From Candidatus Taylorbacteria bacterium RIFCSPLOWO2_01_FULL_45_34b (GTDB lineage Bacteria; Patescibacteriota; Minisyncoccia; Phycocordibacterales; DSPV01): a stretch of DNA of 26,569 nucleotides. The stretch covers positions 1 to 26,569 of the forward strand of contig MHRY01000044.1 of NCBI GenBank assembly GCA_001822675.1. Direction: 5' to 3'. The number at the start of each line of letters is the position of its first letter. Position 1 is the first letter of the stretch. The translations under genes were made by a program, and so were the position numbers. The notes beneath the pieces are model-generated. The model saw only the letters and a list, made by a program, of their open reading frames with translations. It did no database searches and was not told the origin of the DNA. Shown piece by piece: positions 1 through 11,515 of this stretch.

Positions 1-80
1 TCTCGCTTTGTGTTTTACCGAGGCGGAGCCTCGGGGAAGTGTTTTTTGATGAGCAGTCAGTTTTTGGCTCGAAGCCAATT
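1..80 (+). repeat. Copy 1 (5'-truncated by the window edge) of a ~105-bp three-hairpin repeat family, R1
   Basis: ctcgctttgtgtttt + ccgaggcggagcctcgggg hairpin + T-run + gtcagtttttggctcgaagccaatt hairpin. Near-identical to 982-1100 and 2066-2170. Confidence 0.7.
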
Positions 81-303
81 TACAGAGGGTTCTTACTTGT
101 CTTTCTGTGGGTACAACTTGCAGGAAACGACAATCTTTCCTCCCTTGAAAACCCCTCAACCGATGGGTTTTCTCGTCTCGACCGGTTGATGAGCGACGCA
201 TGGCGATTACAACTTTTCTGCGAGTGTCAGGGTTGCGAAATTAAGTCGGAACGGGAGTGCTCTCTGGGGTGCTTTTCATTGGGGAGTATGATACAATCGG
301 GAA

Positions 304-543
304 ATGGAAAGACTTACCATTGAACTCATTCCAGATCTGGAACAGGGCGGCTACACCGCCCGTGTGTCTGACATTCCCGCCTATGGTGAAGGAGCGACAG
401 AAGAAGAGGCGATTGCTGATTTGAGGGAAGCTCTCCGTACGTATATCGAAGCCTTTGGACTGAAGGACGCGCTTGCTCGTGTTAATTCGCCGGCAAAGCT
501 CAAACAGCTTAGTGTCAGTCTCAAAGACTTCTCACTTGCCTAG
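304..543 (+). CDS. hicB: HicB-family antitoxin (UPF0150-like)
   Basis: 79 aa. The GGYTARVSDIPAYGEGATEEEAIADLREALRTYIEA pattern matches the HicB/UPF0150 fold signature. Sits immediately upstream of a HicA-like ORF. Confidence 0.7.
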   Translation: MERLTIELIPDLEQGGYTARVSDIPAYGEGATEEEAIADLREALRTYIEAFGLKDALARVNSPAKLKQLSVSLKDFSLA

Positions 544-568
544 ATTTCCCCGACCGACAGGAAAAGAA

Positions 569-766
569 ATGATCTCATTCCTGACGAAACAGGGCTTTTC
601 AATCGTACGTGTACGTGGCAGTCATCACGCTATGGAGAAAGGTGATCTCCGCACGACGGTACCTCTCCATGGCAATGAGCCCATTAAAATAGGGACGCTT
701 CGTGGTATTCTTAAAGATATCAATCTGGCACCCGATGAATTCGTGGAACTCTGGGAAAAGTTTTGA
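569..766 (+). CDS. hicA: HicA-family mRNA-interferase toxin
   Basis: 66 aa from the internal ATG at 569. FLTKQGFSIVRVRGSHHAM..TVPLHGNEPIKIGTLRGILKDINL is a classic HicA (YcfA) signature. The 5' extension back to 473 overlaps hicB and is unlikely to be real. Confidence 0.78.
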   Translation: MISFLTKQGFSIVRVRGSHHAMEKGDLRTTVPLHGNEPIKIGTLRGILKDINLAPDEFVELWEKF

Positions 767-792
767 AGCTACTGAAAAGGTTATTACAAATT

Positions 793-809
793 CCAAGGTT
801 CAACCTTGG
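793..809. repeat. REP-like palindrome CCAAGGTTCAACCTTGG
   Basis: Perfect 8-bp arms. Belongs to the AGGT-N-ACCT palindrome family also seen flanking the RAYT gene. Confidence 0.7.
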
Positions 810-813
810 AATG

Positions 814-872
814 CAAAAAAAGCGAGGACTCCATAGAGTTCTCGCTTTGTGTTTCCCCGAGGCTTAGCTTTT
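814..872 (+). repeat. Truncated copy R2 of the ~105-bp repeat (hairpin A plus the first half of hairpin B only)
   Basis: aaaaaaagcgaggactccatagagttctcgctttgtgtttccccgaggcttagc. The second arm of hairpin B and all of hairpin C are missing. Confidence 0.6.
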
Positions 873-981
873 CCCAGTAGTTTTTTCCAAACTTTTCCCC
901 TCTAAAAAACCCATTTCCAAGAGGACTAAAAGGTACCTATCTGAAGCGATCGCCCCAGATAGGTTACAAGGTTCTGATAAA

Positions 982-1100
982 GAAAAAGCGAGGGTTCCGA
1001 AGAACTCTCGCTTTGCGTTGTGTCCCCGGAGGCGAAGCCTCGGGGAAGTGTTTTTATTTTAGGAGAGAAGATTGGTCAGTTTTTGGCTCGGAGCCAACTG
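982..1100 (+). repeat. Full copy R3 of the ~105-bp three-hairpin repeat
   Basis: Hairpin A is aaagcgag-ggttccgaagaact-ctcgcttt. Hairpin B is ccccggaggcgaagcctcgggg followed by gtgttttt. Hairpin C is ttggctcggagccaa. Confidence 0.75.
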
Positions 1101-1208
1101 TTAAGCATCTAACCCCCCTGTTCATGCTTATTTTCATGTAGACGATTGCCATTAGCAGCTGGCTCATGGTATTATTTTTACGTGACTGAAGAAGGAAAAC
1201 AGAAAATT

Positions 1209-1601
1209 ATGGCTATTGCTAAAAAATACAACCTTGCCTTGCTGGTGCTTTTCGGCTCGCGAGCAAGGGGCGATGCACTAGAAAAAAGTGATTTTGATGT
1301 TGCTTATTCCTCTATTGCACCCATGGATTTAGTCGAGGAAAGTGAAATGGCTGTAGAACTGCATGAAATTTTCAAGACAATCAATGTAGATATGGTAAAT
1401 CTATCGAACGCCAATCCCTTACTCATGAAAAAAATTGTTGATGAAGGTGTTGTTCTTTATGAGGCTAAGGAATCACTATTCAATAGTTTGTATTTATACG
1501 CGATGAGAATTTACCGCGAGTCAGAGTTTCTAAACAAAGTGCGCCGTGAATATGTACTAAGTAGAATTAATCAGCACAAAAAAGATGCCGCTCGAGCTTG
1601 A
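1209..1601 (+). CDS. mntA: MntA-type minimal nucleotidyltransferase (antitoxin of a HepT/MntA pair)
   Basis: LFGSRARGDALEKSDFDV matches the GSxxRG..DxD nucleotidyltransferase motif. RBS gaaggaaaa lies 13 nt before the ATG at 1209. The ORF could extend back to 1146. Overlaps the downstream HepT ORF by 17 nt. Confidence 0.72.
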   Translation: MAIAKKYNLALLVLFGSRARGDALEKSDFDVAYSSIAPMDLVEESEMAVELHEIFKTINVDMVNLSNANPLLMKKIVDEGVVLYEAKESLFNSLYLYAMRIYRESEFLNKVRREYVLSRINQHKKDAARA

Positions 1602-2019
1602 TAAAAATCTTATCACCAGGAAACTTGCTCTTCTCGATGGTTATATCGCCGAGTTGGAACCGATAGTGTCATTAACCGAGGAAGAAATTCTCAAAGATTC
1701 TCTGAAATTTCACGTGGCGGAAAGAATGTTTCAGCTTATTGTTGATGAAATGATTGATATAAATACCCACTTGATTCGGGTAAAAACATTAACACCGCCA
1801 GATGACATTCAGAGTACATTTACTGTCTTAGCGAAGGCTGGCATTTTACCCGCAGATTTCACCAAAAAAATTTCACCTGTCGTTGGTTTGCGTAACGCGG
1901 TTGTGCATCGCTATGAACATGTTAGTCTGGGGCGTTTTATCCATGAACTTAAACGTAACTTCGGTGATTTCAAAGACTATCTTATTCACATCAATTCTTT
2001 TATCGAAAAGGCTACATAG
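1585..2019 (+). CDS. hepT: HepT-type HEPN toxin (DUF86)
   Basis: 144 aa. C-terminal GLRNAVVHRYEHV is the Rx4HxY HEPN catalytic motif. Translationally coupled to the upstream nucleotidyltransferase. Confidence 0.8.
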   Translation: MPLELDKNLITRKLALLDGYIAELEPIVSLTEEEILKDSLKFHVAERMFQLIVDEMIDINTHLIRVKTLTPPDDIQSTFTVLAKAGILPADFTKKISPVVGLRNAVVHRYEHVSLGRFIHELKRNFGDFKDYLIHINSFIEKAT

Positions 2020-4492: not shown

Positions 4493-4861
4493 TTAGACAG
4501 CGATTTCCGCTCGGCGTGGCTTTTTGGCCACTTTTTCGAGCAGAGTCCTCACCTCTTGGAAGGTGAAGGGTTTGAGGAGGGGAATTGCTCCCACGGATGC
4601 GGCTTTTGCCGCCAAGTTCTCTGTTCTTCCGGACATGAGCACTTTGGGGATTTTCGGCCCCACTACTTTGAGAACGGTGAGCCCTTCATCAAGGCTTGGA
4701 ATATCGCAGTCGGAGATGACTAAATCCAGTCCTCCTTCCGCGATTTTTTCTTGTCCTTCCATGCCGTCTGCGGCCAGAATTGTCTCGTGCCCGAGCATTT
4801 GCAGGAAGTCTCCGAGAAGTTCCCGGATGTCGCCTTCGTCTTCAATTAATAGCACTTTCAT
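4493..4861 (-). CDS. Single-domain (CheY-like) response regulator receiver protein
   Basis: 122 aa. KVLLIEDE acidic pocket, DLVISDCDIP phospho-acceptor Asp, KVLMSG and LLKPF conserved Thr/Lys positions. No output domain and no adjacent kinase. Confidence 0.85.
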   Translation of the reverse strand: MKVLLIEDEGDIRELLGDFLQMLGHETILAADGMEGQEKIAEGGLDLVISDCDIPSLDEGLTVLKVVGPKIPKVLMSGRTENLAAKAASVGAIPLLKPFTFQEVRTLLEKVAKKPRRAEIAV

Positions 4862-4962: not shown

Positions 4963-5154
4963 GTAAGAAAAAGGCTCCAATTTGTTTGTGGGCGGGAGAG
5001 GAGTTTTGATTCTTACAGAATCTGTACAGTTTTCATATTTTCTCACGAAAATAACCGCTCGAAAATATGTTCAAACTTTTCAAGTCTTCTCACATAAGCC
5101 AAGCAGTTGGCGTGCTCCTGCCCACAAAATATATTCGCGAGGCTCATTATTTTG

Positions 5155-5236
5155 TGGGCAGGGGGAGACTCGAACTCCCATGGATTACTCCACTAGTTCC
5201 TAAGACTAGCGCGGCTACCAGTTACGCCACCTGCCC
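5155..5236 (-). tRNA. tRNA-Leu (anticodon TAG), type II with a long variable arm
   Basis: Minus-strand read GGGCAGG..CTAGT-CTTAGGA-ACTAG..TGGAGTAATCCAT..GGGAG-TTCGAGT-CTCCC-CCTGCCC-A. 7-bp acceptor and T-loop are intact. CCA is not encoded. Confidence 0.85.
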
Positions 5237-6832: not shown

Positions 6833-7270
6833 GCGGAGAATATGATAGCATGTTTTCTTGTCATGCCAGCTACAACTTTTTCGATTTGAAAAGTCGCAGC
6901 CCCCGCCTCCTTACGCTTCGCTCCAGTCCGGCTCGGACATTGTGAAAAAGTATTGTCGTCACGAGTTACTAAGTATTTTGCTTCGACAACTCGCAAAATA
7001 CTAAGTGCTCGCGACCCCGCCTTGCCCGTTTTTGTTGGTACAAAAACATGGCTGCGGCTCGGACAAGATAGAAAAGTCTCAAGCAGTTGAGATTTTTCTA
7101 TCTTGTCCGCCCACCTGGATTCGGCCGCGACTCAAACCTCGCCGCCGCTCGGTTTGGTCTGGCCACCGCCTCGCGATTTTTGCTACTGCAAAAATATCGC
7201 TCCGGCGTTCGAATCCAGACACCCCGCAAGCAGTTGCGGGGTTGTGGGCGGCCAATATTCAGAAATATTG

Positions 7271-7342
7271 TCCGCCCACCTGGATTCGAACCAGGGACCT
7301 TACGCTTAAGAGGCGTTTGCTCTACCAACTGAGCTATGGGCG
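7271..7342 (-). tRNA. tRNA-Lys (anticodon CTT)
   Basis: Minus-strand read CCGCCCA-TA-GCTC-AGTTGGTA-GAGC-A-AACGC-CTCTTAA-GCGTA-AGGTC-CCTGG-TTCGAAT-CCAGG-TGGGCGG-A. Canonical cloverleaf. CCA is not encoded. Confidence 0.85.
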
Positions 7343-7451
7343 GAATTCTTATGTAGCCCATAGAGAAGTCCTAACTGCTTGCCCCGTAGTGAGCTTGCTC
7401 TACTACTGGGGAGCTATGGGCGGATTTGGAAAGTGTAAGATGAAAAATACA

Positions 7452-7604
7452 AAGTGTAAAGGTTTGGCCAAGCTCTCAAATGTTGTGCTGACGCCTCATA
7501 TTGCTTCCGGAACAATCGTCGCGAGGGAAGAAATGGCTCACATGGCGGCGGAGAACCTCATCGTCTTTTTTGAGGGTAAGGTGCCGCCAAATATAGTAAA
7601 GTAG
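7452..7604 (+). pseudogene. C-terminal remnant (~50 aa) of a D-isomer-specific 2-hydroxyacid dehydrogenase
   Basis: LAKLSNVVLTPHIASGTIVAREEMAHMAAENLIVFFEGKVPPNIV matches the conserved C-terminus of the D-2-hydroxyacid dehydrogenase family. No catalytic or NAD-binding domain lies upstream; the upstream DNA is tRNA-derived debris. Confidence 0.5.
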
Positions 7605-8634: not shown

Positions 8635-9342
8635 ATGCTTACGTTAGAGGCAAAGAAACGCGATACGTCAAAAAAACCCGACTCTTTCAGGCGCACGGGT
8701 GTTCTACCGGCTGTTTTTTACGGCCGCAAAGAGAAATCAACACCTATTTCACTTGCGGAAAAAGATTTTCAAAAAATTTGGAAGGAAGCTGGTGAAACCA
8801 GCGTCATTTCGCTTAAAGGCGAGTGGGGAGCTCTTGAAACGCTTATAAACGATGTTGATCTCCATCCTCTAACCGGCACGCCACGCCACGTTGATTTTTA
8901 CGTTATTGAAAAAGGCCAAAAAGTGAAGGTCAAAGTGCCACTTGAATTTACCGGTGTTTCTCCGGCTGTCAAAGAGTTGGGGGCCATTTTAATCAAAGTG
9001 CTCCACCAACTTGAAATTGAGGCTGAACCGAAGAATTTGCCGCGAAGCATTGATGTTGATATTTCAAAACTCGTTGATTTAACCAGTCAAATTTTGGCCA
9101 AAGATATTGTTTTGCCGACGGGTGTTATACTTACGGTAAGTCCGGAGGAGGTTGTTGCGTCAGTTGCAGAAGCGAAAGAGGAAGAAGTGGTTGTCGCTGA
9201 ACCAGTTGACCTCTCCGCTATCGAACTTTCAGAAAAGAAAGGCAAGGAAGAGAAAGAGGGTGAGGAGGGTGTCACGCCAGCCCGGAGTTCCGACGGAGGT
9301 GGGGAAGCCCCTTCGAAACCAAAAGCTCCAGAAAAAAAGTAA
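8635..9342 (+). CDS. rplY: 50S ribosomal protein L25 / general stress protein Ctc form (bL25) with an acidic/Lys-rich C-terminal extension
   Basis: FRRTGVLPAVFYGRK...ISL...GEW..L..D..LHPL......HVDFY matches the bL25 signature. Confidence 0.85.
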   Translation: MLTLEAKKRDTSKKPDSFRRTGVLPAVFYGRKEKSTPISLAEKDFQKIWKEAGETSVISLKGEWGALETLINDVDLHPLTGTPRHVDFYVIEKGQKVKVKVPLEFTGVSPAVKELGAILIKVLHQLEIEAEPKNLPRSIDVDISKLVDLTSQILAKDIVLPTGVILTVSPEEVVASVAEAKEEEVVVAEPVDLSAIELSEKKGKEEKEGEEGVTPARSSDGGGEAPSKPKAPEKK

Positions 9343-9386: not shown

Positions 9387-10703
9387 ATGTTTTTTACAAT
9401 TCACAAACCAGTTCTTTTTTTTATATACGTGGCACTTTGTTTCGGTGCCATCTTTTCTCCTTGTACATTCGTTTTCGCTCAAAATGGCGATGATGTTTTG
9501 AATCGCCGGGCACAGCTTGAAAAAGACCTCGCGGCGCTCCAGGTTGATATTGATGCCCAGAAAAAAATTTTGGAAGATCGTCAGCGTGAGCGGGTTTCAC
9601 TGGAGCGCGACGTGGCGATTCTCGATGCCAAAATAGAAAAAGCCAGACTATCCATCAAAGCGCGGAATCTCGTCATTCAAAAACTAAAGGGAGAGATTGG
9701 AGGCAAAGAACAGACGATTGGCAAGCTCGAGCAAAAAATCGAACGGGGCAAAGACTCAATGGCTGGACTTATCCGAAAAACAAACGAGCTCGAATCATAT
9801 TCCATAACCGAGCTTTTGCTTGCCAACCGGAATTTGTCTGATTTTTTCGCTGACGTCGATTCGTTTGACTCGATACAGCAGGCGCTCCAAAGTTCCTTCA
9901 GAGAACTTGAGGTTGATAAAATTGAAACACAGGCGCAAAAAGATTCACTTGAGGAAAAAGTTTCGGAAGAAATTGACCTGCGGAAAATTCAGGAACTTGA
10001 AGCCAAACGCATCGGCGAACAGGAAGCTGAAAAGAAAAAGATTCTGACTGTTTCGAAGGGTGTTGAGGCGAACTACCAGAAAATTATCAACGAAAAGGAA
10101 AAAAGCGCTGCTTCGATTCGCGCCGAACTCTTCGCCCTTCGCGGTTCTGCCGCTATTCCGTTTGAAAAGGCACTTATGTATGCGAATGCCGCGACGCAAA
10201 AAACCGGCGTTCGCGCCGCGCTCATTTTGGGCATCATTGCCGAAGAGTCGAATCTTGGAGAAAATGTGGGGACGGGAAGCTGGCGCGTGGACATGAAAGT
10301 GCCGCGCGATACGGTGCCGTTCATCGAGATCACCACGCGCCTCGGGCTTGATCCTGACAAAGTGCCGGTTTCAAAAAAGCCGTGGTATGGCTACGGTGGC
10401 GCCATGGGTCCCGCACAGTTTATTCCGTCCACCTGGGTTCTCTATGAAGACAGAATCACCAAAGTGACGGGACACAATCCACCAAACCCGTGGGATCCGG
10501 AAGACGCCTTCACTGCTTCCGCTCTGCTTCTTATGGACAACGGTGCGGCGAAAGGAACCTATCAAGCTGAACGTCTCGCCGCACTCCGCTATTTAGCAGG
10601 CTGGGCGAATGCCGGAAAAAAAGCCTACGCTTTTTATGGCGATGATGTTATGGAGTTAGCCGAAAACTATCAAAAACAAATCAATATTTTGGCAGGGAAT
10701 TAG
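9387..10703 (+). CDS. Secreted coiled-coil protein with a C-terminal lytic transglycosylase (SLT/MltB-like) domain
   Basis: Signal peptide MFFTIHKPVLFFIYVALCFGAIFSPCTFVFA from the ATG at 9387, which follows a GAGGG RBS. An alternative ATG lies at 9351. About 250 aa of heptad-rich sequence is followed by GYGGAMGPAQFIPSTW, the transglycosylase active-site region. Confidence 0.7.
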   Translation: MFFTIHKPVLFFIYVALCFGAIFSPCTFVFAQNGDDVLNRRAQLEKDLAALQVDIDAQKKILEDRQRERVSLERDVAILDAKIEKARLSIKARNLVIQKLKGEIGGKEQTIGKLEQKIERGKDSMAGLIRKTNELESYSITELLLANRNLSDFFADVDSFDSIQQALQSSFRELEVDKIETQAQKDSLEEKVSEEIDLRKIQELEAKRIGEQEAEKKKILTVSKGVEANYQKIINEKEKSAASIRAELFALRGSAAIPFEKALMYANAATQKTGVRAALILGIIAEESNLGENVGTGSWRVDMKVPRDTVPFIEITTRLGLDPDKVPVSKKPWYGYGGAMGPAQFIPSTWVLYEDRITKVTGHNPPNPWDPEDAFTASALLLMDNGAAKGTYQAERLAALRYLAGWANAGKKAYAFYGDDVMELAENYQKQINILAGN

Positions 10704-10734: not shown

Positions 10735-10751
10735 ACGAGGTCGAACCTCGT
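10735..10751. repeat. REP hairpin ACGAGGTCGAACCTCGT (outer, left of the RAYT element)
   Basis: 7-bp stem with a CGA loop. Confidence 0.7.
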
Positions 10752-10772: not shown

Positions 10773-10811
10773 TTATACCATAAAAAATCTCTCTACAAGG
10801 TTCGACCTCGT
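10773..10811 (+). repeat. Left flank module of the RAYT gene: 15-nt direct repeat ATTATACCATAAAAA + 7 nt + REP hairpin ACAAGGTTCGACCTCGT
   Basis: The same module (attataccataaaaa-N7-cgaggtcgaacctcg) recurs at 11478-11515 on the other side of the gene, in the same orientation. Confidence 0.75.
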
Positions 10812-11467
10812 TTTTCGTTGTAATGAAGCCAATCCCGTATTGTTGTCTCAAAATCTGCCACCGTTTCAAAATATCCTGGGAAAGCCTTGCGTTCAAGAAT
10901 AACTTTTTCCGGCCTGTCCACTAAAAGAAAGTCCTGATAACTTGAGTAGGAGTAGTTTTTAAGGAAGGAAAGGGCCTTCTTTTTATTCACGATGCCCGTT
11001 TCTTTCCACGTAGATTCAATCAGTTTGATTGGGTTTAGGTGGATATACGAAAATAAATATTTCATGTATTCGTCATTATCTGCGTATTCAGCTTTAAATT
11101 TTCCTTGGAAAAGTGCTCCCGTGCGTTCCTCTTTTGTATTAAAATACATAGTATAGGCTGTGGAGAGTTTTTGCATAAATTTACTGATTCCGCCTTCCAT
11201 TTTCTCCCGTACAAGAAGGTGGAAATGATTTGGCATACAACAGTATGTTCCTATATCAATAATAGTTTTTTCTCGGTCTTGGCCGAGCATAGAATTGAGT
11301 GACCAATCAGAGTTGGTAATATGAACCGGGTTTGTACTATTGCACATATAAAGAAGTCCGATAAAACGTTTGTAATCACGATCAGCATTAAAAATTTTTC
11401 TTTTGTCCGTGCCTCTGTTATAGACATGGTAGTATCCATCTATAGAGATTTCAATATTTCTGGTCAT
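10793..11467 (-). CDS. REP-associated tyrosine transposase (RAYT; IS200-like Y1 HUH transposase family)
   Basis: 224 aa. YHVYNRG ... CMPNHFHLLV (HuH) ... GALFQGKFKA ... YIHLNPIK ... YSYSSYQDF (catalytic Tyr region). The motif order and spacing match the RAYT/TnpA_REP branch rather than the short IS200 TnpA. Flanked on both sides by REP hairpins. Confidence 0.85.
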   Translation of the reverse strand: MTRNIEISIDGYYHVYNRGTDKRKIFNADRDYKRFIGLLYMCNSTNPVHITNSDWSLNSMLGQDREKTIIDIGTYCCMPNHFHLLVREKMEGGISKFMQKLSTAYTMYFNTKEERTGALFQGKFKAEYADNDEYMKYLFSYIHLNPIKLIESTWKETGIVNKKKALSFLKNYSYSSYQDFLLVDRPEKVILERKAFPGYFETVADFETTIRDWLHYNEKRGRTL

Positions 11468-11477
11468 GTGAGAAAAT

Positions 11478-11515
11478 ATTATACCATAAAAAGTGTGTTT
11501 CGAGGTCGAACCTCG
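11478..11515 (+). repeat. Right flank module of the RAYT gene (direct repeat + REP hairpin CGAGGTCGAACCTCG)
   Basis: attataccataaaaag-tgtgttt-cgaggtcgaacctcg. Read on the minus strand, the direct repeat gives TGGTATAAT, an extended -10, 10 nt upstream of the RAYT ATG. Confidence 0.75.

What the first reader, a model, noticed from the sequence alone, without database searches (positions are those of the whole stretch)
7097..7604. tRNA-Lys surrounded by copies of its own ends and a decapitated 2-hydroxyacid dehydrogenase gene
A 20-nt copy of the tRNA-Lys 3' end (tgtccgcccacctggattcg) recurs 170 bp downstream at 7097-7116. A degenerate copy of its 5' half (ttgctctac..gagctatgggcgga) recurs upstream at 7395-7426, along with a tRNA-like 7-bp acceptor pairing (GCCCATA/TATGGGC) around 7357-7426. 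Next to this, only the last ~50 codons of a D-2-hydroxyacid dehydrogenase survive (7452-7604). Duplicated tRNA 3' segments are the classic footprint of site-specific integration and excision at tRNA genes. The gene stump suggests the event, or later decay, destroyed a host gene.
Basis: partly seen in the sequence, partly recalled or inferred. Interest (0 to 1): 0.6.

Follow-up and report, generated by a model that had tools for sequence, protein, structure and literature searches.

The report
tRNA-end-copying mini-units flanking tRNA-Lys
A lysine tRNA gene in an uncultured groundwater bacterium (Parcubacteria) is flanked by small, tightly folding non-coding units that each carry a copy of the tRNA's own end; one unit is cleanly absent in one contig of the same population, and similar units follow other tRNA genes in relatives, which suggests a poorly known kind of tiny insertion that uses tRNA gene ends as its landing site.

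Summary
tRNA-Lys(CTT) lies at 7271-7343 (minus strand). Its last 18 nt plus 6 trailer nt recur as a 23/24 direct repeat at 7100-7123, 165 bp away. Its 5' 14 nt recur at 7411-7424. Only the last 49 codons of a 2-hydroxyacid dehydrogenase remain (7455-7601).

The 141 bp between the 3' repeats also holds inverted copies of the tRNA end and folds into a closed rod (z about -8 to -9). One near-identical contig (3 SNPs in 14.8 kb) lacks exactly this 165-bp unit, while about 20 others carry it. The same layout follows about 10 of 47 tRNA genes (Lys, Leu, Tyr, Trp, Arg) in related Parcubacteria: tRNA, inverted copy, conserved hairpin modules, direct copy of that tRNA's own 3' end.

No integrase or free att-bearing element was found. 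The best reading is a family of miniature, enzyme-less, att-like units that recombine at tRNA gene ends. The main rival is tRNA-mimicking RNA processing signals.

The dehydrogenase stump is a recent pseudogene: 90% identical to an intact Taylorbacteria gene, dN/dS 0.095. Nothing ties it to the same event.

The parts
7271..7343 (-). tRNA-Lys(CTT) gene, intact, CCA not encoded (followed by CAA)
   Evidence: ARAGORN; Rfam RF00005 69.9 bits, full length
7265..7288 (-). Proximal direct repeat X1: T-loop 3' part, T-stem 3' strand, acceptor 3' strand, discriminator and 6 trailer nt (CGAATCCAGGTGGGCGGACAATAT on the minus strand)
   Evidence: the repeat finder D1; exact 18-mer found twice with 0.02 expected
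7124..7264 (-). 141-bp non-coding insert. With one repeat it forms the 165-bp unit, which is present in about 20 contigs and precisely absent in L005.
   Evidence: Alignment of population contigs; blastn; allele census. Folds as a closed rod: RNA -92.3 kcal/mol, z -7.9; ssDNA -56.8 kcal/mol, z -9.1
7244..7259 (-). X'acc: inverted copy of the acceptor 3' strand plus trailer (AATATTGGCCGCCCAC). It pairs with 7264-7279 or with the distal copy.
   Evidence: Inverted repeat I4, 16 nt, 94% complementary; MFE structures
7222..7241 (-). Hairpin CCCCGCAA-CUGC-UUGCGGGG, placed between the two halves of the inverted copy. It carries the CAACTGCTTG motif also seen at 7080-7089 and 5100-5109.
   Evidence: CTGC-loop hairpins lie behind tRNAs in 7 of 11 Parcubacteria cases and 0 of 29 control cases
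7205..7218 (-). X'T: inverted copy of the T-loop and T-stem 3' strand (CTGGATTCGAAC). It pairs with 7115-7128.
   Evidence: Inverted repeats I8 and I9
7117..7212 (-). A-like two-hairpin module inside the insert (..CCGGAGCG[hairpin]CGCGAGGCGG..)
   Evidence: Covariance model R1, 83.8 bits (this sequence was in the training set); alignment and covariation
7100..7123 (-). Distal direct repeat X2, a copy of the tRNA 3' end followed by the original trailer
   Evidence: D1. The empty-site contig L005 has this version (..GGACAAGAT) directly on the tRNA
7060..7109 (-). 23-bp trailer hairpin with a CUGC loop that includes the last nucleotides of the tRNA-end copy. This is the ancestral trailer of tRNA-Lys, with equivalents in L007, L135, L143 and L146.
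   Evidence: I1; fold; orthologous trailers
6951..7064 (-). Second A-like module, ending in an acceptor-like stem plus ACAAT
   Evidence: R1 68.7 bits (training sequence); S2 motif with 2 mismatches
6862..6938 (-). Third, weaker A-like module just upstream of the 508-aa gene
   Evidence: R1 24.8 bits, E 0.005, not in the training set; D2 repeat with 126-bp period
7344..7427 (-). Upstream unit: outer copy of tRNA nt 1-13 (7411-7424) plus GTAGAGCAA (7395-7403), an internal hairpin, and an inner inverted copy CTATGGGC (7356-7363). It mirrors the downstream layout and is fixed in all contigs.
   Evidence: (D6)
7455..7604 (+). 3'-terminal 49 codons plus stop of a D-2-hydroxyacid (glyoxylate/glycerate) dehydrogenase. 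This is a pseudogene stump; homology starts at 7458.
   Evidence: PDB phmmer E 2.4e-10; Pfam PF00389 C-terminal end, below cut-off; 90% identity to intact P0122/P0124; 84% nt identity, dN/dS 0.095
7005..7604 (+). Spurious 199-aa open frame, antisense through the tRNA and the unit. Only its last 49 codons are real coding remnant. Gene callers annotate it as 199 aa in the occupied allele and 144 aa in the empty allele.
4985..5153 (-). Second example in the window: a unit behind tRNA-Leu(TAG) (5154-5236). It has an inverted acceptor copy, a GCCAA-CUGC-UUGGC hairpin, an inverted T-arm-like segment, a B module, a GAUUC-UGUAA-GAAUC hairpin and a degenerate direct copy of the tRNA 3' end.

Best explanation
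The copies of the tRNA-Lys ends are the outer edges of small, non-coding, hairpin-closed units that sit directly against the gene. Each unit has the same plan. At the tRNA-proximal edge is an inverted copy of the adjacent tRNA end (X'). In the middle are conserved hairpin modules. At the far edge is a direct copy of that tRNA end (X). X' pairs with X, so the unit is a closed rod and the tRNA gene stays intact.

The downstream 165-bp unit belongs to a family that follows many tRNA genes in Parcubacteria. I infer that it is gained and lost by recombination within the roughly 21-bp identical tRNA 3'-end segment. That segment would work like an att site, and the unit would behave as a miniature, enzyme-less integrative element serviced in trans by an unidentified recombinase. 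The three A-like modules between the tRNA and the next gene would then be successive units, the oldest and most decayed lying furthest from the tRNA.

Shown: the anatomy, the family, its tRNA association, structural covariation and one empty-site allele. Inferred: that units move as DNA, that the crossover lies in the tRNA-end repeat, and that an enzyme acts in trans.

The dehydrogenase stump is a separate, recent truncation whose breakpoint abuts the upstream unit.
For: 1. Empty versus occupied alleles in one population. L005 lacks exactly one repeat plus the 141 bp and differs from the window by 3 SNPs in 14.8 kb. The occupied allele is seen in independent IDBA, MEGAHIT and JGI assemblies.
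2. The 165-nt unit folds end to end. RNA z -7.9; ssDNA z -9.1.
3. The architecture 'inverted copy at +12 to +56, direct copy at +89 to +340' recurs. It is seen at window Lys and Leu-TAG; L007 Lys (two tandem units), Leu-TAA and Leu-TAG; L139 Leu-TAG; L143 Leu-TAA; L010 Tyr; L145 Leu-TAG (two units); L146 Trp; and, more decayed, L144 Arg. Each uses the adjacent tRNA's own sequence. Upstream and control values are 7-10 nt.
4. Occupancy of orthologous tRNAs differs between species. tRNA-Lys has one A-type unit here, a B-type unit plus a unit of a third type in L007, and none in L143, L146 or L131-L140. tRNA-Thr and tRNA-Cys have none. The units are therefore dispensable.
5. Internal modules are shared between units at different tRNAs and in different genomes. 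CM R1 gives 16 hits in 178 kb of Parcubacteria loci, 8 of them outside the training set. All lie downstream of a tRNA on the same strand. In 598 kb of controls there was 1 hit at E 0.65.
6. Stems covary. 10 of 18 pairs show compensatory changes. UGUAA hairpins show six different stems, 8 of 10 behind tRNAs versus 0 of 20 in controls.
7. Mirror-image 5'-end copies occur upstream of tRNAs here and in L146 and L144.
Against: - Only one contig (L005, an IDBA scaffold) shows the empty site. Two other scaffolds have N gaps at this locus. Reads were not available, so an assembly shortcut across the 21-nt repeat cannot be formally excluded.
- No recombinase, transposase or free or circular form of the unit was found.
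- Direct-repeat length varies from 12 to 27 nt. It does not fit a fixed target-site duplication.
- Units at different tRNAs carry different end sequences. A single sequence-specific enzyme does not explain this.
- In L010 the far-end copy has diverged from the tRNA yet still pairs with its inverted partner. A-module ends look like a 7-bp acceptor stem followed by A and CCA or CAA. Both points suggest selection on the folded unit itself, which favours an RNA-level role.
- All comparative sequence is about 180 kb from about 16 loci, not whole genomes.
Confidence: 0.45

Rival explanations
1. The units are functional RNA. They would be tRNA-acceptor/T-arm mimics and conserved hairpins in the tRNA 3' trailer or mRNA leader, serving as processing or termination signals (RNase P, RNase Z or RNase III 'punctuation', like plant mitochondrial t-elements). 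Arrays would grow and shrink by unequal recombination between repeated tRNA-end copies. The polymorphism would then be a by-product rather than mobility.
For: - All units are on the tRNA's strand, in a co-oriented tRNA-gene-tRNA block conserved in relatives.
- Strong predicted folds.
- Compensatory changes in module stems.
- Loop motifs (CUGC, UGUAA) are conserved across species while the stems differ.
- The tRNA-Lys 3' end is enclosed in a long hairpin in every relative examined.
- A-modules end in a 7-bp stem followed by A and CCA or CAA, matching the local tRNA 3' end.
- In L010 pairing is kept although the copy has drifted from the tRNA.
- A 33-nt tRNA-Leu trailer segment is identical in the window and in a distant genome (L145).
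- The t-element precedent is PMC1920247.
Against: - Only about a quarter of the tRNAs carry units, and orthologous tRNAs differ in occupancy and module type. The units cannot be a general maturation requirement.
- One strain appears to lack the unit.
- Rfam's tRNA model does not score the unit even at E<=10.
- No terminator-like T tracts were found.
- No expression data were available.
Confidence: 0.3
2. These are classical footprints. Integrase-encoding prophages or islands integrated into tRNA-Lys and were later almost entirely deleted, leaving attL/attR-like repeats and short arm remnants. The same activity destroyed the dehydrogenase.
For: - The topology is that of att sites: an intact tRNA plus a direct copy of its 3' end distal to an insert.
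- tRNA gene fragments are a known product of element integration (PMC9897764).
- An empty site exists.
- The stump is recent (dN/dS 0.095) and abuts the upstream unit.
Against: - The insert is 141 bp with no ORF.
- No integrase is present anywhere in the 26.5-kb window or the 34-kb contig.
- No phage, plasmid, viral or metagenome sequence carries the core outside tRNA-Lys genes.
- Insert content is a conserved module family shared by units at different tRNAs, each with its own tRNA-specific ends and an inverted copy. Random deletion remnants of unrelated islands would not give this.
- Unit sizes cluster at roughly 100-170 bp.
Confidence: 0.12
3. The repeats arose locally, by replication template-switching or slippage at the hairpin-prone tRNA gene, or the empty allele is an assembly artefact. 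No dedicated element or function is involved.
For: - Inverted plus direct partial duplications are typical products of template switching at quasi-palindromes (my own knowledge).
- Contig breaks and N gaps occur exactly at these hairpins.
- The empty allele is seen in only 1 contig.
Against: - The duplications are far beyond chance.
- The interior of the unit is not a duplicate of flanking sequence. It belongs to a module family found in other genomes.
- The same ordered layout recurs at about 10 tRNAs.
- A 21-24-nt repeat should not collapse at the k-mer sizes used.
Confidence: 0.08

Closest known systems
att sites of integrase-borne prophages or genomic islands in tRNA genes
   Same: The tRNA gene is intact. 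A direct repeat of its 3' end (21-24 nt, from the T-loop to just past the discriminator) bounds an insert on the distal side. An empty site exists in the population.
   Different: The insert is 141 bp and non-coding, with no integrase and no cargo. The unit also carries an inverted copy of the target. Sister units at other tRNAs share the interior but have ends matching their own tRNA.
CIMEs (cis-mobilizable elements: att-flanked, integrase-less derivatives of ICEs or IMEs; tRNA-Lys is a known hotspot in streptococci; review PMC5704250)
   Same: Both are bounded by att-like repeats, lack their own recombinase and can sit in tandem arrays (accretion) at a tRNA gene 3' end.
   Different: CIMEs are kilobase-scale remnants of identifiable ICEs and depend on a resident ICE integrase of matching specificity. 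Here the units are about 100-170 bp, highly structured, have no ICE relic and occur at several different tRNAs.
MITEs and REP/BIME elements
   Same: Both are small, non-coding, hairpin-forming, repeated and modular mosaics in intergenic DNA, polymorphic between strains.
   Different: There is no short fixed target-site duplication. The 'terminal inverted repeats' are copies of the neighbouring tRNA rather than a family-wide sequence. The units are strictly tRNA-adjacent and co-oriented. The window's RAYT-like gene is flanked by a different palindrome (CGAGGTCGAACCTCG) that is absent from the units.
Folded single-strand recombination substrates (integron attC sites; CTX phage attP(+)). From my own knowledge, not tested.
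   Same: An imperfect inverted repeat with a bulged insertion folds so that one strand rebuilds a duplex copy of the chromosomal target. ORF-less, structure-conserved and sequence-variable units can stack in arrays next to a fixed site.
   Different: No IntI, attI or dif-like site is present. The target is a tRNA gene end. Single-stranded intermediates are purely hypothetical here.
Plant mitochondrial t-elements and the tRNA punctuation model (PMC1920247)
   Same: Both are partial tRNA mimics (acceptor/T-arm-like helices) next to genes, on the transcribed strand. They could be cut by RNase P or RNase Z to define RNA ends.
   Different: No transcript data exist here. The units lack a recognisable cloverleaf (no Rfam tRNA signal). 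They are dispensable and variable between close relatives.

Membership tests
Integrase-mediated island or prophage at a tRNA gene | Direct repeats made of the tRNA 3' segment flank the inserted DNA, and the tRNA is reconstituted | tested here: met
   24-nt repeat, 23/24 identical, at 7100-7123 and 7265-7288; tRNA intact
Integrase-mediated island or prophage at a tRNA gene | A tyrosine or serine recombinase gene within or next to the insert | tested here: not met
   The insert is 141 bp with no ORF. No integrase or recombinase Pfam family is found among genes of the window or contig.
Integrase-mediated island or prophage at a tRNA gene | A matching attP on a free phage, plasmid or element | tested here: not met
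   The 21-mer core gave 0 hits in viral contigs. It gave 10 metagenome hits, all inside tRNA-Lys genes. blastn against phages and plasmids found no match. Only exact-match scans were run, so divergent attP sites could be missed.
MITE | Terminal inverted repeats shared by the family, and a short target-site duplication of fixed length | tested here: not met
   The inverted segments copy the adjacent tRNA and differ between units. Direct repeats range from 12 to 27 nt.
MITE | Many dispersed near-identical copies and a cognate transposase | tested here: inconclusive
   Modules recur: 16 CM hits, and L007 B modules at two tRNAs are about 90% alike. No whole genome was available and no cognate transposase was seen.
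REP/BIME with RAYT | Units are built from the palindrome that flanks the RAYT (Y1 transposase) gene | tested here: not met
   The RAYT-like gene 10793-11467 is flanked by CGAGGTCGAACCTCG. About 9 such sites occur in the window, none in 6835-7430.
CIME (att-flanked, integrase-less, trans-mobilised) | att repeats without a recombinase, and tandem accretion at one site | tested here: met
   Window unit; two tandem units with three copies of the tRNA end in L007; two units in L145
CIME (att-flanked, integrase-less, trans-mobilised) | Derivation from, and mobilisation by, a resident ICE or IME with the same att specificity | not testable with these tools
   No complete genome of the organism is available. 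No ICE genes lie adjacent.
tRNA-like processing element (t-element) | Acceptor/T-arm-like helix on the transcribed strand | tested here: inconclusive
   The X'/X helix reproduces the acceptor and T-stem 3' strands. A-module ends are a 7-bp stem followed by A and CCA or CAA. No Rfam tRNA hit at E<=10.
tRNA-like processing element (t-element) | RNase P or RNase Z cleavage that defines transcript ends | not testable with these tools
   Requires RNA end mapping or enzyme assays.
D-isomer-specific 2-hydroxyacid dehydrogenase (the stump) | Full catalytic plus NAD-binding domains (about 320 aa) | tested here: not met
   Only residues equivalent to 275-323 remain. Pfam PF00389 matches profile positions 105-134 only, at 17.7 bits, below the cut-off. 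No other fragment is present in the window or loci.

The most novel reading that the evidence does not exclude
Parcubacteria (CPR) genomes may carry a previously undescribed class of about 100-170-nt elements that mimic tRNA ends and stack behind, and occasionally in front of, tRNA genes. Each unit pairs an inverted and a direct copy of its host tRNA's end around conserved hairpins with CUGC and UGUAA loops. There are two possible modes of action. In the first, the units are mobile DNA that integrates as a folded single strand, whose stem rebuilds the duplex tRNA-gene target (analogous to integron attC or CTX attP). In the second, they are bacterial 't-elements' that recruit tRNA-processing enzymes to punctuate transcripts.
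Probability: 0.3. Interest if true: 0.75.

Novelty: new variant of a known kind. Interest (0 to 1): 0.6.

Why it matters
tRNA genes are the classic landing pads for large mobile elements. Here the same topology appears at a scale of about 150 bp, without an enzyme. The units are shaped to mimic the tRNA end and recur across a lineage of ultra-small, uncultured bacteria whose non-coding DNA is essentially unexplored.

If the units are mobile, they define a new minimal integrative element and point to an unidentified recombination activity at tRNA gene ends. If they act as RNA, they would be a bacterial counterpart of organellar tRNA-like punctuation signals.

There is also a practical consequence. 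Such units create spurious ORF calls: the 199-aa and 144-aa 'proteins' run antisense to the tRNA. They also cause contig breaks and scaffold gaps in CPR metagenome assemblies.

Tried and rejected
- The search for related loci with the neighbouring 508-aa protein in genome contigs found no relative.
- The gapped pattern for the A-module (GATATTT..AAATCRCGAG) was too loose. It returned about 120 unrelated loci, which wasted the last genome scan. I reused these loci only as negative controls.
- The word-index protein search with the 54-aa stump alone found nothing. The 199-aa frame then retrieved the intact homologues.
- BLAST extended the dehydrogenase match back to residue 72 of the 199-aa frame. 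I rejected this as a low-similarity tail, because the 90%-identical hit starts at residue 151 and DNA homology starts at 7458.
- Rfam at gathering and at E<=10 found only the tRNA, with chance microRNA-like hits on the long hairpin.
- The promoter/terminator scan found no intrinsic terminators.
- Primer-binding-site idea (inverted copy complementary to the mature tRNA-CCA end): rejected. The inverted copies match the genomic trailer (CAATATT, CAAAATA), not CCA.
- Tandem duplication of the tRNA or its trailer: rejected. Unit interiors are unrelated to each other and to the flanks, while the end copies are perfect.
- Link to the window's Y1 (IS200-like or RAYT) transposase: rejected, because its flanking palindrome is different.
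- L004 cannot be scored as an empty allele, because an N gap covers the junction.
- Literature searches found no description of such units in CPR or Parcubacteria. The library is incomplete, so this is not proof of novelty.
Full report
**Source and context.** The window is a contig of a Parcubacteria (CPR) population from the Rifle aquifer metagenomes. The neighbouring 508-aa fused MFS/spermidine-synthase-like protein is found, identical, on 22 contigs from ANAN16/SAMN038424xx and related samples. Its homologues, and those of the dehydrogenase stump, are annotated Candidatus Taylorbacteria, Parcubacteria or Patescibacteria. Gene content fits this: type IV pilins, L25, RF-1, S2, EF-Ts, PheST, gyrB and toxin-antitoxin pairs. 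No integrase or recombinase domain is present. The only transposase-like gene is a Y1 (IS200-like) protein at 10793-11467.

- tRNA-Lys(CTT) lies at 7271-7343 on the minus strand.
- Its 3' end plus 6 trailer nucleotides recurs as a 23/24 direct repeat, at 7265-7288 and 7100-7123, 165 bp apart. An exact 18-mer occurs twice, against 0.02 expected.
- The first 14 nt, counting one leader base, recur at 7411-7424, against 0.00 expected. The D-arm 3' part follows at 7395-7403.
- An 8-bp stem (7414-7421 with 7356-7363) closes the fold of that upstream segment.
- The 54-codon ORF 7440-7601 matches the last 45 residues of solved glyoxylate reductases at E 2.4e-10.

The 141 bp between the 3' repeats contains, in tRNA sense:
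- an inverted copy of the acceptor 3' strand plus trailer (7259-7244);
- a CCCCGCAA-CUGC-UUGCGGGG hairpin (7241-7222);
- an inverted copy of the T-loop and T-stem 3' strand (7218-7205);
- a two-hairpin module.

The direct copy follows. The unit therefore folds end to end. As RNA it gives -92.3 kcal/mol, z -7.9. As 165-nt ssDNA it gives -56.8 kcal/mol, z -9.1. The upstream segment 7344-7427 has the mirror-image plan: outer 5'-end copy, hairpin, inner inverted copy.

**Population polymorphism.**
- Aligning the locus from near-identical contigs shows that L005 lacks exactly one repeat plus the 141 bp. Its tRNA runs straight into the distal trailer (GGACAAGATAGAAAAATC...).
- L005 otherwise differs from the window by 3 SNPs in 14.8 kb.
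- The occupied allele is seen in the window/L001, L002, L003, L006 and the JGI contigs L150-L152. It is also seen as the 199-aa spurious ORF on 13 contigs. The empty allele (144-aa ORF, an in-frame loss of 55 codons) is on one contig.
- Scaffold gaps or contig ends fall at this locus in L001, L004, L151 and L152. That fits hairpins and/or mixed alleles.
- I judge the empty allele probably real. A 21-24-nt repeat should not collapse at the k-mer sizes used, and L005 is a slightly distinct strain. It nonetheless rests on one assembly and needs confirmation from reads.

**Not a private accident of this tRNA.**
- In the window, tRNA-Leu(TAG) (5154-5236) is followed by the same ordered layout, ending in a degenerate copy of its own 3' end near 4985-4998.
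- L007 is a relative in which the 508-aa protein is 66% identical and the tRNA-Lys / gene / tRNA-Leu synteny is kept. There tRNA-Lys is followed by two tandem units, giving three copies of GATTCCTGCTGGGCGGACAA. tRNA-Leu(TAA) and tRNA-Leu(TAG) there carry units built on their own T-arm and acceptor sequences.
- Further cases are L139 Leu-TAG, L143 Leu-TAA, L010 Tyr, L145 Leu-TAG (two units), L146 Trp and a decayed one at L144 Arg.
- Across 47 tRNAs in about 170 kb of Parcubacteria loci, about 10 show an inverted match of 11-19 nt at +12 to +56 and a direct match of 12-27 nt at +89 to +340. Upstream regions and 15 control tRNAs give 7-10 nt, apart from neighbouring tRNAs with similar T-arms.
- Copies of the 5' end upstream also occur at L146 tRNA-Cys (22 nt) and L144 tRNA-Arg.

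**Unit interiors are a modular, structurally conserved family.**
- An 'A' module (..CCGGAGCG[hairpin]CGCGAGGCGGGGUCGCG[hairpin]CGUGACC-A-CAA/CCA..) aligns from eight instances. 10 of 18 consensus pairs show compensatory changes.
- A covariance model built from it finds 16 matches in 178 kb of Parcubacteria loci. Eight are outside the training set, including a third module in the window at 6862-6938. All lie downstream of a tRNA (Lys, Leu, Trp, Tyr) on the same strand.
- In 598 kb of unrelated controls the model finds one match, at E 0.65.
- GAnnn-UGUAA-nnnUC hairpins with six different stems lie behind tRNAs in 8 of 10 cases, against 0 of 20 in controls. CUGC-loop hairpins do so in 7 of 11 cases, against 0 of 29.
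- The spacer between tRNA-Lys and the next gene is thus an array of three A-like units. The tRNA-proximal one is polymorphic and still carries a perfect tRNA-end copy.
- Rfam has no family for any of this.

**How it most likely works.** The topology is that of an att site, and there is an apparent empty site. Occupancy of orthologous tRNAs differs between species, and many tRNAs have no unit. Interiors are shared between units at different tRNAs. Together these favour small, dispensable DNA units gained and lost by recombination within the tRNA-end repeat, with any enzyme supplied in trans (confidence about 0.45). The paired inverted and direct copies mean that a single strand of the unit rebuilds a duplex mimic of its target. 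This resembles integron attC and CTX attP substrates. That comparison rests on my own knowledge and was not tested.

The main rival (about 0.3) is that the units are RNA signals. The supporting points:
- strand co-orientation;
- loops conserved across species;
- hairpins that enclose the tRNA 3' end in every relative examined;
- A-module ends that imitate an acceptor stem plus A-CCA or A-CAA;
- pairing kept after the copy has drifted from the tRNA (L010).

All of these point to selection on the fold, as with plant mitochondrial t-elements (PMC1920247). The two readings are not exclusive.

A classical integrase-island remnant (about 0.12) fits the topology and the literature on tRNA gene fragments (PMC9897764). 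It does not fit the size, the lack of any integrase or attP-bearing element, or the tRNA-specific ends around a shared interior.

**The dehydrogenase stump.**
- It is 44/49 identical to residues 275-323 of an intact 323-aa enzyme of Candidatus Taylorbacteria (P0122 and P0124; GCA_001820985.1).
- DNA homology (84%) starts at 7458 and ends at the stop codon. Neither flank is syntenic with the intact locus, which sits after rpiB-rpe-tkt-pfkB-fba.
- dN/dS against the intact gene is 0.095 at dS 0.74, with no frameshift or stop. The truncation is therefore recent relative to the species split. With only 49 codons this estimate is rough.
- The stump is fixed in all contigs and absent from the other relatives.
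- Its breakpoint lies 30 bp from the upstream unit. A rearrangement mediated by such repeated units is plausible but unproven.
- The 199-aa ORF that gene callers report here is spurious upstream of codon 151.

**Verdict.** The interesting content is not the stump or a lost prophage. It is a recurrent, structured, tRNA-end-copying unit family in CPR bacteria, of which the tRNA-Lys insert is an apparently recent and polymorphic member.

Noticed in passing
window 10793-11467 (-), with palindromes at 10736-10750, 10796-10810, 11501-11515; also near 794, 2361, 3898, 3990, 4404: A 224-aa Y1 (IS200-like, PF01797) transposase gene is flanked by CGAGGTCGAACCTCG palindromes. The same palindrome (up to 3 mismatches) occurs at about 9 sites in the window, against 0.5 expected. 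This looks like a RAYT/REP-type system, distinct from the tRNA-flanking units.
   Followed up: partly
window 4985-5153 (-) and L145 11584-11616: The first 33 nt after tRNA-Leu(TAG) (CAAAATAATGAGCCTCGCGAATATATTTTGTG) are identical in the window and in L145. In that genome the 508-aa neighbour is only about 50% identical. This suggests either a strongly constrained trailer hairpin or recent spread.
   Followed up: partly
window 7005-7604 (+); L005 7372-7806: Public gene calls annotate a 199-aa 'protein' (144 aa in the empty allele, 71 aa where tRNAs are masked) that runs antisense through tRNA-Lys and the unit. The 165-bp indel is in frame (55 codons), so both alleles yield ORFs that cluster together in protein databases.
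   Followed up: yes
L001 about 9411-9510; L004 near 6430; starts of L151 and L152: Scaffold N gaps and contig ends fall exactly at the tRNA-Lys repeats and hairpins (window 7085, 7244, 7268-7322) in several independent assemblies. The locus is an assembly breakpoint, possibly because of mixed alleles.
   Followed up: partly
L146 4527-4548 versus 4635-4656; L144 upstream of tRNA-Arg (record strand -, 8699-8771): Partial copies of tRNA 5' portions (22 nt of tRNA-Cys; 14 nt of tRNA-Arg) lie about 60-110 nt upstream of the genes in other Parcubacteria. They mirror the upstream unit of the window's tRNA-Lys.
   Followed up: partly
L147-L149 (intact dehydrogenase locus), 8972 to contig end: Contigs from three different assemblies that carry the intact dehydrogenase all stop 320-410 nt downstream of the gene. 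A perfect 20-bp palindrome lies right after the stop codon. This hints at a repeat or variable region there.
   Followed up: no
L007 184-906; L146 7332-7976: LAGLIDADG-type homing endonuclease-like ORFs sit next to the tRNA clusters in two relatives.
   Followed up: no
window 39-2019: Toxin-antitoxin pairs lie near the start of the window. They comprise a HicA toxin, a RelB/PHD-like antitoxin fragment, and an MNT nucleotidyltransferase (1146-1601) with a HepT partner (1585-2019).
   Followed up: no
window 7433-7459: The short direct repeat AAAGTGTAA occurs twice (about 7433-7441 and 7451-7459), and the second copy straddles the dehydrogenase breakpoint at 7457/7458. It may be microhomology at the rearrangement junction or chance.
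   Followed up: no
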